Positions 7,189 to 7,831 of a stretch of DNA of 11,412 bases are shown in pieces. The stretch lies in assembly GCA_016840405.1 (NCBI GenBank), contig JAEOSK010000055.1:1-11412 (forward strand). The letters run 5' to 3'. The DNA is from Candidatus Hermodarchaeum yapensis (lineage in GTDB: Archaea; Asgardarchaeota; Hermodarchaeia; Hermodarchaeales; Hermodarchaeaceae). Position 1 is the stretch's first letter; each line of letters starts with the position of its first letter. The translations under genes were made by a program, and so were the position numbers. The notes under the pieces are model-generated. The model ran no database searches and was not told the DNA's origin. It saw nothing but the letters and a program-made list of their open reading frames with translations.

Positions 7189-7202
7189 CAAACGTTTATA
7201 AG
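7189..7202 (+). promoter_or_regulatory. BRE/TATA-like promoter (caaacgTTTATAAG) upstream of rpo5
   Basis: TTTATAA at 7195-7201 is preceded by an A-rich BRE-like segment, about 60 nt upstream of the ATG at 7262. Confidence 0.55.
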
Positions 7203-7261
7203 AGATTTTTAGCACTGTCGCGGCTCGAGTGCGGATAAGAAGAAGATTTCTCGATTAAAGA

Positions 7262-7831
7262 ATGGTGAAACTCGTGAGTTTAACAGAAAAACAACATTAT
7301 TTTGTTAACCGGCTCATCAAACGCCGCGGGTTTGAGATATCTAAGAAAATCGAAGGAGAAAAAGAGGGGATTGTCGACATTCATGCCAAATCTGTTGAGA
7401 AAAAGCCTAAACAAACCCTCTTAATACGAATTATTCTTGATACACCGACCGTGGGTGTCGAAATTCTTCGGAATACAATCAAGGAGCGGGATAATGGCGA
7501 ATTTAGCCATGCAATTCTCATTGGTGGTGAACGTTACACCTATGCTGCCAGGCGCGAAGCCAAGGAAATGGACGTGGAATTACTACACCGCCGGTTCCTT
7601 TCCATAGATCTTTTCATGCATGATCTTGTCCCCGAACATGACATCGTTGAAGAAAAAGAGATTCTTGAACTCGAGAAAGAATACGGAATCTCACGTGAGC
7701 AGTTTCCAAAAATCAAAGCAGGAGATCCCGCGGCAAAAGCCATTGGGGCTCGTCCTGGAGATGTCATTCTCATCAAACGAAAATCGGAAACAGCCGGGAA
7801 ACACCAAGTTTACCGTTTCTGTGTCGCTTAA
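7262..7831 (+). CDS. rpoH: DNA-directed RNA polymerase subunit Rpo5/RpoH with an additional N-terminal Rpb5 jaw-like domain
   Basis: The C-terminal HDLVPEH...FPKI...DP.AKAIGARPGDVI.I.RKSETAG...YR is the Rpo5/Rpb5 signature. There are about 115 extra N-terminal residues. Confidence 0.93.
   Translation: MVKLVSLTEKQHYFVNRLIKRRGFEISKKIEGEKEGIVDIHAKSVEKKPKQTLLIRIILDTPTVGVEILRNTIKERDNGEFSHAILIGGERYTYAARREAKEMDVELLHRRFLSIDLFMHDLVPEHDIVEEKEILELEKEYGISREQFPKIKAGDPAAKAIGARPGDVILIKRKSETAGKHQVYRFCVA

What the first reader, a model, noticed from the sequence alone, without database searches (positions are those of the whole stretch)
7262..7831. Eukaryote-like two-domain Rpb5 in an archaeal genome
Seen: 189 aa, with about 115 aa N-terminal to the Rpo5 core, including LIKRRGF, DTPTVGVEILR, AILI and YTYAAR. 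Known: typical archaeal Rpo5 is about 75-85 aa and lacks the N-terminal jaw domain. Eukaryotic Rpb5 has this restriction-endonuclease-like domain, with motifs like DRGY and EPSVGVKTMK in yeast (recalled). Inference: this is a homolog of the eukaryotic jaw domain and a possible intermediate between an Mrr-like nuclease fold and Rpb5-N. The VDI Asp is retained but there is no clear (D/E/Q)xK motif, so it is probably nuclease-dead. Similar fusions may already be catalogued in some archaea.
Basis: partly seen in the sequence, partly recalled or inferred. Interest (0 to 1): 0.75.

Follow-up and report, generated by a model that had tools for sequence, protein, structure and literature searches.

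The report
Archaeal Rpo5 with Rpb5-type jaw domain
This Asgard archaeon makes its only RNA polymerase subunit Rpo5 as a two-domain protein whose extra front half is a disabled Mrr-type nuclease domain related to the "jaw" half of eukaryotic Rpb5, a part that the reviews I read say archaea lack.

Summary
Window 7262-7831 (+) is an intact 189-aa gene. Residues 117-187 are a standard Rpo5/RpoH core, and residues 13-111 match Pfam Mrr_cat. It is the only Rpb5_C gene found in the 86%-complete genome.

A profile built only from N-domains of 27 Asgard proteins hits eukaryotic Rpb5 in the PDB (11 significant hits, best E 7.5e-9) and no Mrr nuclease structure. Profile-profile scores place the archaeal domain between free Mrr domains and the eukaryotic jaw.

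The Mrr catalytic (E/Q)xK is absent in 0 of 27 archaeal and 0 of 17 eukaryotic rows, so the domain is nuclease-dead.

Caveats:
- This protein's own family is among the least Rpb5-like.
- It has no PF03871 hit.
- The domain trees do not resolve the question.

The long form is the sole Rpo5 in many Asgard families and in some Bathyarchaeota, while other Asgard families keep the short form. My literature searches found no paper that describes it. This scan has noted the same thing in at least 48 other genomes.

The parts
7262..7831 (+). rpo5/rpoH gene, 189 codons plus stop. It encodes the two-domain RNA polymerase subunit.
   Evidence: ORF. Pfam and NCBIfam matches. It is the only Rpb5_C match in the genome.
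7298..7594 (+). N-terminal domain, residues 13-111. It is an inactivated Mrr-type PD-(D/E)XK domain and the archaeal counterpart of the Rpb5 jaw.
   Evidence: Mrr_cat E 6.6e-7. The family profile hits eukaryotic Rpb5 N-domains. The ESM Atlas model of this protein matches Mrr_cat models at TM 0.74-0.80.
7376..7378 (+). Codon of D39, the retained first acidic residue of the Mrr motif ('VDI').
   Evidence: Column 35 of the three-way alignment is D in 53 of 53 free Mrr rows, 16 of 27 archaeal Rpo5-N rows and 2 of 17 eukaryotic rows.
7427..7435 (+). Codons R56-I57-I58, at the place of the Mrr catalytic (E/Q)xK. The motif is lost here.
   Evidence: Columns 52-54. (E/Q)xK is present in 27 of 53 Mrr rows, 0 of 27 archaeal rows and 0 of 17 eukaryotic rows.
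7535..7552 (+). YTYAAR (residues 92-97). It aligns with the eukaryotic 'TPSA' stretch that touches downstream DNA.
   Evidence: Human MTPSAK aligns to profile fTpaAk. T is present in 27 of 27 archaeal and 17 of 17 eukaryotic rows. The DNA contact of TPSA/P118 is taken from review PMC6690254. This protein has Y94 where eukaryotes have Pro.
7610..7822 (+). C-terminal assembly domain, residues 117-187 (RNA_pol_Rpb5_C).
   Evidence: The best PDB matches are archaeal Rpo5 chains (4qiw_H E 3.3e-19).
7194..7242 (+). Likely promoter and leader. It holds A/T-rich TATA-like words TTTATAA (7194-7200) and ATTTTTA (7205-7211). Two RNA-library contigs begin at 7242.
   Evidence: Sequence. Contig pieces X17 and X18 both start at 7242. 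The promoter assignment is an inference only.

Best explanation
The gene encodes the cell's RNA polymerase subunit Rpo5 (RpoH).

Shown:
- The C-terminal 75 residues are the ordinary assembly domain.
- The N-terminal 114 residues are a Mrr-type restriction-endonuclease (PD-(D/E)XK) domain that has lost the (E/Q)xK of its active site.
- This long form is the only Rpo5 in the genome.
- The same two-domain protein is the only Rpo5 in many Asgard families and some Bathyarchaeota.
- The archaeal N-domain family is significantly similar to the N-terminal 'jaw' domain of eukaryotic Rpb5, and lies between free Mrr domains and that jaw in profile space.

Inferred:
- One fusion of a Mrr-like domain to Rpo5 happened in archaea.
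- Eukaryotes inherited it and it then diverged, gaining an inserted segment of about 15-25 residues and losing the remaining Asp.
- In the enzyme the C-domain docks on the largest subunit as in other archaea.
- The basic N-domain (pI 9.7) sits at the lower jaw beside downstream DNA. There it acts as a DNA-contacting and factor-docking module rather than as a nuclease.
For: Architecture:
- Searches give the two-domain layout.
- There is a single Rpb5_C match in the own genome. The rpo2 gene is on another contig. The neighbours are a CoA-transferase pair and a PfkB kinase.

Distribution:
- The N-domain query matches 196 of 400 genomes of the phylum.
- N plus C lie in one frame in all 30 loci (two cut by contig ends) and in 18 of 18 further loci from 12 families.
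- Five complete or near-complete genomes each have one Rpb5_C match, in a frame of 181-227 aa.
- Two Bathyarchaeota MAGs have only long forms.

Homology to Rpb5-N:
- The N-only profile gives 11 significant PDB hits, all eukaryotic Rpb5.
- Eukaryotic Rpb5 sequences (Drosera, sturgeon, rows named RPABC1, Micromonas-like) are hit at E 2e-11 to 4e-7 among 1.84e9 proteins.
- hhalign gives 98.4-98.6%.
- Full-length phmmer alignments run unbroken across the domain junction (query 58-186 against human 76-208; query 43-188 against yeast 67-215).
- Pro at the former catalytic Lys position occurs in 9 of 27 archaeal and 14 of 17 eukaryotic rows but 0 of 53 Mrr rows.
- The tree that holds all Rpo5/Rpb5 N-domains together has a log-likelihood 7.3 higher than the free tree (p-AU 0.61).
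- The Atlas model of the whole protein overlays Nucleocytoviricota Rpb5 models at TM 0.84 both ways over 183 residues.

Dead site and charge.

RNA-library contigs of close relatives cover both halves of the gene, 7242-7822.
Against: - This protein has no PF03871 hit at E<=10. Only 4 of 28 archaeal long forms have one, while 28 of 28 hit Mrr_cat.
- The N-domain alone finds nothing in the PDB by phmmer.
- The window's family scores 14.5-17.8 bits on my eukaryotic-N HMM, about the same as free Mrr domains (median 15.2, maximum 30.3).
- The archaeal N profile is closer to Mrr (score 138) than to eukaryotic N (score 84). However, my Mrr set was picked as the best hits of that same profile.
- In the free N-domain tree, four archaeal families (f31, f14, f16, f17) fall on the Mrr side, and the branch joining eukaryotes to the others has only SH-aLRT 86.
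- A tree with eukaryotes outside the archaeal group is not rejected (p-AU 0.385).
- The protein lacks both prolines that the review says touch DNA in yeast.
- Five Asgard families, including the largest sampled (0 of 135 genomes), have no N-domain match, and the five genomes checked there have short forms. Single origin therefore needs losses or transfers.
- No structure model, no docking and no experiment were possible.
- RNA-library contigs do not prove transcription.
Confidence: 0.75

Rival explanations
1. Independent fusions. Archaea and the eukaryotic stem each joined a Mrr-type domain to the front of Rpo5 separately, so the archaeal domain is only a cousin of the jaw.
For: - 28 of 28 archaeal long forms hit Mrr_cat but only 4 of 28 hit Rpb5_N.
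- The window's family is no closer to eukaryotic N than free Mrr domains are.
- The AU test does not reject eukaryotes lying outside the archaeal group.
- Four archaeal families sit on the Mrr side of the free tree.
- The same dead domain is also fused to a different, Cys-rich partner in other archaeal proteins, so it has been recombined more than once.
Against: - Both groups show the same partner, the same order, a colinear junction and the same loss of (E/Q)xK.
- They share Pro at the old Lys position, which is absent from 53 free Mrr rows.
- The N-only profile finds Rpb5 and no Mrr structure in the PDB.
- The constrained single-origin tree is the best tree found.
- The carriers are the archaeal phylum regarded as nearest to eukaryotes.
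Confidence: 0.12
2. Transfer of a two-domain Rpb5 gene from eukaryotes or giant viruses into archaea.
For: - Atlas feature and structure searches put the protein next to Nucleocytoviricota Rpb5 clusters of similar length (score 0.94; TM 0.84).
- The distribution within Asgard is patchy, and the form also occurs in Bathyarchaeota.
Against: - The long form is the sole Rpo5 in complete genomes of five families.
- Its C-domain matches archaeal Rpo5 chains best.
- The archaeal N-domains are the less derived state: closer to Mrr, without the eukaryotic insert, and with Asp often kept.
- In the full-length tree eukaryotes form one starred clade (99) among the archaeal long forms, not the reverse.
Confidence: 0.05
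3. The N-domain is a working nuclease or defence module that happens to be attached to Rpo5.
For: The Mrr_cat match is above Pfam's cut-off, and D39 is retained.
Against: - (E/Q)xK is present in 0 of 27 archaeal rows, and in this protein the position reads R-I-I.
- The protein is the only Rpo5 and is conserved across families, not patchy like a defence gene.
- 28 of 28 long forms also match the 'inactive restriction endonuclease' family NA-iREase1 at E<=1. For this protein the match is below the cut-off (19.7 against 27 bits).
Confidence: 0.03

Closest known systems
Eukaryotic Rpb5 / RPABC1 / POLR2E (Pfam PF03871 + PF01191; e.g. PDB 1dzf, 5flm_E), shared by Pol I, II and III
   Same: - Two-domain order, with a PD-(D/E)XK-fold domain followed by the assembly domain.
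- A colinear junction.
- Profile-level similarity of the N-domains.
- Loss of the nuclease site.
- Conserved R-G-[YF], VGV and T-x-x-A stretches.
   Different: - No PF03871 hit for this protein.
- It lacks the eukaryotic insert of about 15-25 residues after the first helix.
- It keeps the Mrr Asp.
- It lacks both DNA-contacting prolines.
- It is 189 aa against about 205-215 aa.
- It serves one polymerase, not three.
Canonical archaeal Rpo5 / RpoH (about 75-100 aa; PDB 4qiw_H, 2waq_H, 1hmj)
   Same: The C-terminal 75 residues are the same domain (E 3e-19 to 7e-14). It meets NCBIfam's RpoH equivalog. It is the sole copy in the genome.
   Different: It carries about 114 extra N-terminal residues. 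The gene stands apart from rpo2, whereas the usual cluster is rpoH-rpoB-rpoA (PMC10833476, passages).
Mrr_cat restriction endonuclease domains (PF04471), including inactive relatives (NA-iREase1, PF22722)
   Same: The Pfam match is above the cut-off. hhalign gives 99.7%. The Atlas model overlays Mrr_cat models at TM 0.74-0.80.
   Different: There is no (E/Q)xK. The domain is fused to an RNA polymerase subunit. The NA-iREase1 score is below its cut-off (19.7 against 27 bits).
Nucleocytoviricota (giant virus) Rpb5 homologues
   Same: Similar length (about 176-206 aa) and the same two-domain shape in predicted models (TM 0.77-0.84). Some viral clusters also hit Mrr_cat.
   Different: They are viral genes. 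The relation was seen only through the Atlas search, which gives no alignment or E-value. The ASFV chain 8q3b_E aligned only over the C-domain.
Rpo13 of Sulfolobales
   Same: It is described as sitting by the N-terminal part of Rpo5 and binding double-stranded or downstream DNA (PMC13257274 and PMC7289017, passages). That is the role I infer for this N-domain.
   Different: It is an unrelated small separate subunit. The likeness is in proposed role only and was not tested.

Membership tests
Rpo5/RpoH/Rpb5 assembly domain (PF01191; NCBIfam NF007129) | Match to the family model above the curated cut-off | tested here: met
   PF01191 scores 85.4 bits against 23.5. NF007129 scores 93.1 bits against 83.
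Rpo5/RpoH/Rpb5 assembly domain (PF01191; NCBIfam NF007129) | It is the cell's RNA polymerase subunit (single copy, no short paralogue) | tested here: met
   One match in the 2.7-Mb, 86%-complete genome. One match in each of five complete or near-complete genomes of other families. Physical presence in the enzyme was not tested.
Eukaryote-type two-domain Rpb5 (PF03871 + PF01191) | Match of the N-terminal part to Pfam RNA_pol_Rpb5_N | tested here: not met
   No hit at E<=10 for this protein. 4 of 28 archaeal long forms hit it, best E 7.8e-5.
Eukaryote-type two-domain Rpb5 (PF03871 + PF01191) | Significant profile-level similarity of the N-domain family to eukaryotic Rpb5 N-domains | tested here: met
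   (11 Rpb5 hits, best 7.5e-9). (eukaryotic Rpb5 at 2e-11 to 4e-7). (hhalign 98.4-98.6%).
Eukaryote-type two-domain Rpb5 (PF03871 + PF01191) | N-domain directly upstream of the assembly domain with a colinear junction | tested here: met
   Single unbroken phmmer alignments run across both domains to the human, yeast and plant chains.
Eukaryote-type two-domain Rpb5 (PF03871 + PF01191) | Restriction-endonuclease-like fold of the N-domain that superposes on the solved Rpb5 N-domain | not testable with these tools
Indirect evidence only: the Atlas model matches Mrr_cat models (TM 0.74-0.80) and viral Rpb5 models (TM 0.84).
Eukaryote-type two-domain Rpb5 (PF03871 + PF01191) | DNA-contacting prolines (yeast P86 and P118 / human TPSA, per PMC6690254) | tested here: not met
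   This protein has I58 and Y94 at the aligned places. Among archaeal rows, 9 of 27 have the first Pro and 11 of 27 have T-P. The Thr is present in 27 of 27.
Eukaryote-type two-domain Rpb5 (PF03871 + PF01191) | Groups with eukaryotic N-domains rather than free Mrr domains in a tree | tested here: inconclusive
   In the free tree it groups with eukaryotes at SH-aLRT 86. The single-origin tree is best, p-AU 0.61. The alternative is not rejected, p-AU 0.385.
Mrr_cat restriction endonuclease (PF04471) | Match to the family model above the cut-off | tested here: met
   29.9 bits against 21, residues 13-111.
Mrr_cat restriction endonuclease (PF04471) | Catalytic D ... (E/Q)xK | tested here: not met
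   D39 is present. R56-I57-I58 stands in place of (E/Q)xK. The full motif is present in 27 of 53 free Mrr rows and 0 of 27 archaeal Rpo5-N rows.
NA-iREase1 inactive restriction endonuclease (PF22722) | Match above the curated cut-off | tested here: not met
   19.7 bits against 27.

The most novel reading that the evidence does not exclude
The lower-jaw module of all eukaryotic nuclear RNA polymerases was invented in archaea. A Mrr-type restriction nuclease was fused to Rpo5 and disarmed before eukaryotes arose, possibly before Asgard and Bathyarchaeia parted. It already served as a platform for downstream DNA and transcription factors in archaeal polymerases. Eukaryotes only elaborated it, and lineages such as the large short-form Asgard family lost it. 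The variants seen in passing (tandem gene pairs, two or three N-domains in a row, Lys-rich or acidic tails) would then be archaeal experiments in specialising polymerases through this subunit.
Probability: 0.6. Interest if true: 0.8.

Novelty: new variant of a known kind. Interest (0 to 1): 0.68.

Why it matters
Reviews and research papers state that archaeal RpoH has only the C-terminal domain and that the N-terminal jaw is eukaryotic. I saw this in passages of PMC6690254 and in the abstracts of PMC3906176 and PMC1802627. The PD-(D/E)XK census lists PF03871 as 'Eukaryota' (PMC3424549).

If the archaeal long form is the ancestor of Rpb5, three things follow:
- One more 'eukaryotic' part of the transcription machine is archaeal.
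- Its origin from a restriction-nuclease domain becomes traceable step by step.
- The jaw's role in downstream DNA handling and factor docking can be studied in a simpler single-polymerase system and in yeast complementation.

It also gives a discrete character (long or short Rpo5) for comparing Asgard lineages with eukaryotes.

Tried and rejected
- Single-sequence search. The N-domain alone against the PDB gave only two chance-level rows (E 0.66 and 1.2).
- Pfam RNA_pol_Rpb5_N. No hit for this protein.
- The search for related loci with the diverse alignments A2 and A3 failed because no stretch was conserved enough. A1 worked.
I took eukaryotic sequences instead. That set is dominated by green plants and Micromonas, so it is a narrow sample.
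- Trees. The N-domain tree and the full-length tree are 'quick' trees with open backbones. I could not say which archaeal family is nearest to eukaryotes. One short-form row (L034) fell among the long forms on a long branch.
- I first took the organism for a Hodarchaeales member from one protein name. Record titles of close relatives say otherwise. Of 18 loci at 58% identity or more, 8 are named Hermodarchaeota or 'Hermod', 6 'Promethearchaeota', 1 Odin, 1 Thor and 2 'uncultured archaeon'. I dropped that idea.
- I dropped row P0140 from the Mrr set before the AU tests because it looked like a truncated Rpo5-type N-domain.
- The Mann-Whitney figure treats related sequences as independent and should not be read as a probability.
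- RNA runs. Four metatranscriptome runs hold only 4-7% of the sampled words. Seven contig pieces at 90-97% identity cover 7242-7822 and nothing of the flanks. These are relatives' contigs from RNA libraries, so they do not prove transcription or a start site.
- Marine-sediment, seawater and estuary DNA runs hold the stretch. Four of them may be its source.
- Literature. Ten searches found no paper describing a long archaeal Rpo5.
- For all 11 papers I opened, I read only passages found by term (plus the outline and abstract of PMC13257274). I read none in full.
- Subscription journals and all supplementary tables were not searchable. Gene-cluster or signature-protein tables of the large Asgard genome papers may already list this.
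Full report
THE OBSERVATION

One search lists an ATG-started ORF at 7262..7831 on the + strand, 189 aa.

- Pfam places RNA_pol_Rpb5_C at residues 117-187 (E 2.2e-24).
- Pfam places Mrr_cat at residues 13-111 (E 6.6e-7, 29.9 bits, above the 21-bit cut-off).
- A weaker match to the 'inactive restriction endonuclease' family NA-iREase1 is below its cut-off.
- There is no match to RNA_pol_Rpb5_N even at E<=10.
- NCBIfam's RpoH equivalog covers residues 115-188.

THE CELL'S ONLY RPO5, STANDING ALONE

- A search of the whole assembly (2.7 Mb, 77 contigs, 86% complete) with PF01191 finds only this gene.
- The upstream genes on the same strand are two CoA-transferase-family genes. The downstream gene is a convergent PfkB kinase whose end overlaps the stop codon.
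- The rpo2 gene lies on another contig. The usual archaeal order is rpoH-rpoB-rpoA (PMC10833476, passages).
- The 95-base spacer upstream holds two A/T-rich TATA-like words.
- Contigs from four metatranscriptome runs (three studies), at 90-97% identity and therefore from relatives, cover 7242-7822 and none of the flanking genes. Two of them start at 7242. This is a weak hint of a separate transcript, not proof.

WHOSE GENOME

- The closest homologues (58-96% identity over both domains) lie in 18 MAG loci.
- Their record titles read Hermodarchaeota or 'Hermod' in 8, 'Promethearchaeota' in 6, 'uncultured archaeon' in 2, and Odin and Thor in 1 each.
- One protein is named Hodarchaeota.
- I read this as an Asgard archaeon, probably of the Hermod group. 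The labels are the submitters' own.
- DNA runs holding the stretch are from marine sediment, seawater and estuaries.

HOW WIDESPREAD THE LONG FORM IS

- The N-domain alone, used as a query, matches 196 of 400 genomes of the phylum. It matches nearly all members of many families (f1 18/18, f7 30/31, f10 21/22, f12 11/12, f14 6/6). It matches none in others (f20 0/135, f19 0/14, and f3, f4, f5).
- In all 30 loci returned, the N match is followed by an Rpb5_C match in the same frame (two cut by contig ends).
- The same holds in 18 of 18 further loci that I fetched from 12 other families.
- Five genomes from the no-match families have ordinary short frames of 88-102 aa.
- Five complete or near-complete genomes with the long form have no second Rpb5_C.
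- Names attached to members include Heimdallarchaeota, Heimdallarchaeaceae, Hodarchaeales, Helarchaeota and Bathyarchaeia.
- Two Bathyarchaeota MAGs carry only long forms, one of them in two copies.

IS THE N-DOMAIN THE COUNTERPART OF THE EUKARYOTIC JAW?

Evidence for:

1. A profile built from N-domains only (27 sequences, 13 families, alignment A2) was searched against all PDB sequences.
   - It gives 14 rows at E<=10. The 11 rows at E<=1.8e-4 are all eukaryotic Rpb5 (human 7.5e-9, plant 7e-8, yeast 4.8e-5).
   - The other three rows (E 0.09-1.7) are unrelated, and no Mrr-type nuclease structure appears.
   - The alignment covers human residues 64-119 (strand, VGIK, helix, MTPSAK), and weakly the first helix with RGY.
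2. The same profile was searched against 1.84 billion representatives.
   - It gives 1299 hits at E<=1e-3.
   - 35 of the 52 rows at 60 bits or more also carry Rpb5_C by my local model, and most of the rest are short fragments.
   - Below about 55 bits the list mixes free Mrr-type proteins with eukaryotic Rpb5. Rows identified by name or sequence include Drosera, sturgeon, 'RPABC1' and a Micromonas-like row, at E 2e-11 to 4e-7.
3. hhalign gives archaeal N vs eukaryotic N 98.4-98.6% (E about 6e-15, score 81-84), archaeal N vs free Mrr 99.7% (score 138-139), and eukaryotic N vs free Mrr 97.4-97.7% (score 60-70). The archaeal domain therefore sits between the two.
4. Full-length phmmer alignments to the human, yeast and plant chains run through the junction without a break. 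The spacing between the domains is therefore conserved.
5. At the old catalytic Lys position, Pro is found in 9 of 27 archaeal and 14 of 17 eukaryotic rows and in 0 of 53 free Mrr rows. This is a shared derived state.
6. The tree that holds all Rpo5/Rpb5 N-domains together is better than the tree found by free search (log-likelihood +7.3, p-AU 0.61).
7. The Atlas's model of the whole protein overlays giant-virus Rpb5 models at TM 0.84 in both directions over 183 residues.

Evidence against, or limits:

- This protein, and 24 of the 28 archaeal long forms tested, do not hit Pfam's Rpb5_N. All 28 hit Mrr_cat.
- The window's family scores only 14.5-17.8 bits on a eukaryotic-N HMM that I built. 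Free Mrr domains score a median of 15.2 (maximum 30.3). Other Asgard families reach 36-50 bits.
- The eukaryote-like signal is therefore carried by the family as a whole, and this member is one of the least Rpb5-like.
- My Mrr comparison set consists of the best hits of the archaeal profile, which inflates that score.
- In the free N-domain tree the eukaryotes (one clade, SH-aLRT 98) join families f1, f6, f7, f10, f11, f12, f28 and f32 at only 86. Families f31, f14, f16 and f17 fall on the Mrr side.
- Holding the archaeal rows apart from the eukaryotes costs 6.5 log-likelihood units and is not rejected (p-AU 0.385).
- The full-length tree has a starred eukaryotic clade among archaeal long forms, but its backbone is open.
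- No fold comparison with solved Rpb5 could be made.

THE ACTIVE SITE

- In a three-way alignment, free Mrr rows show D (53 of 53) and the full D...(E/Q)xK motif in 27 of 53.
- Archaeal Rpo5-N rows keep the D in 16 of 27 and have (E/Q)xK in 0 of 27.
- Eukaryotic rows have the D in 2 of 17 and (E/Q)xK in 0 of 17.
- This protein has D39 and then R56-I57-I58. It should not cut DNA.
- The N-domain is basic (pI 9.7, 23 K+R against 17 D+E), and the C-domain is not (pI 5.9).

HOW IT MOST LIKELY WORKS

Shown: the architecture, the sole-copy status, the dead site, and the family-level similarity to the jaw.

Inferred from what is known of Rpb5 and Rpo5:
- The C-domain binds the largest subunit.
- In eukaryotes the TPSA stretch and two prolines touch the DNA there, and the domain also binds factors (PMC6690254). 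Archaeal Rpo5 and Rpo13 are also placed at downstream DNA (PMC7289017).
- The Thr of that stretch is conserved in all archaeal rows. This protein has neither proline, so its contact, if any, differs in detail.

WHAT IS KNOWN

- The fold assignment of Rpb5-N to the PD-(D/E)XK superfamily is established, and it is listed there as eukaryote-only (PMC3424549, passages).
- A 2026 survey of archaeal small subunits modelled Asgard Rpo5 with other subunits. In the passages I saw it says nothing about a long Rpo5.
- Ten full-text searches found no description of it.
- Databases do carry these proteins, with automatic names and domain calls.
- Supplements and subscription journals could not be checked.
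- This scan has already made the same finding on other DNA: 53 notes in at least 48 genomes, covering Thor-, Hermod- and Jord-type archaea. I treated those as leads and re-derived the points above myself.

VERDICT

This is a real gene and a real extra domain. It is very probably the archaeal counterpart, and likely the forerunner, of the eukaryotic Rpb5 jaw, and it is nuclease-dead. This particular family is a divergent, Mrr-like member rather than an especially eukaryote-like one. The placement in the enzyme and the single origin remain inferences.

Noticed in passing
L030:806-1366 and 1459-2016; L049:1011-1571 and 1664-2221; L050:1020-1583 and 1661-2227: Family f31 has two intact two-domain rpo5 genes in tandem, about 60-100 bases apart. 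Two polymerase variants that differ in this subunit would be possible.
   Followed up: partly
L040:546-1841 (family f9); proteins P0060 (481 aa), P0074 (456 aa), P0075, P0089, P0117: Some Rpo5 frames carry two or three N-domains in a row before one C-domain, by my local HMMs. P0060's cluster is named RpoH/Rpb5 C-terminal domain-containing protein.
   Followed up: no
L038:969-1928, L053:992-1765, L039:980-1630, L041:805-1533: Long forms of family f7 (relatives are named Heimdallarchaeaceae) and f11 have C-terminal tails after the Rpb5_C domain. Two are Lys-rich repeats (TTKAKPK-like) and two are acidic runs. One Pfam pre-annotation on such proteins is PF07382.
   Followed up: no
Proteins P0077, P0088, P0103, P0110, P0127, P0143: These are archaeal proteins of 196-251 aa. 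They have a similar N-terminal Mrr-like domain that keeps the Asp but lacks (E/Q)xK. It is followed by a conserved Cys-rich C-terminal part with no significant Pfam match (C..KCG...EC.G...Y.C.IR.ISDNA.FH). One cluster is named 'restriction endonuclease [Bathyarchaeota]'. In the N-domain tree they sit next to f16/f17 Rpo5-N. They may be a sister use of the same dead domain.
   Followed up: partly
L073:950-1507, L074:914-1507; G401 contigs C182 and C122: Bathyarchaeota MAGs carry two-domain Rpo5 as their only Rpb5_C genes, and one genome has two copies on different contigs. The long form is therefore not confined to Asgard.
   Followed up: partly
ESM Atlas clusters: Giant-virus (Nucleocytoviricota) Rpb5 clusters of about 176-206 aa are the nearest non-archaeal neighbours by features (0.94) and by predicted structure (TM 0.77-0.84). 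In one of them 90% of members hit Mrr_cat. Viral Rpb5 may keep the compact, archaeal-like state.
   Followed up: no
Protein P0095 (217 aa): This unnamed metagenomic two-domain Rpo5 has a longer linker of about 22 residues between the N and C domains. In that respect it resembles eukaryotic Rpb5.
   Followed up: no
window 7242: Two RNA-library contigs from two runs begin at exactly this base, 20 nt before the ATG. No RNA contig covers the neighbouring CoA-transferase or PfkB genes.
   Followed up: partly
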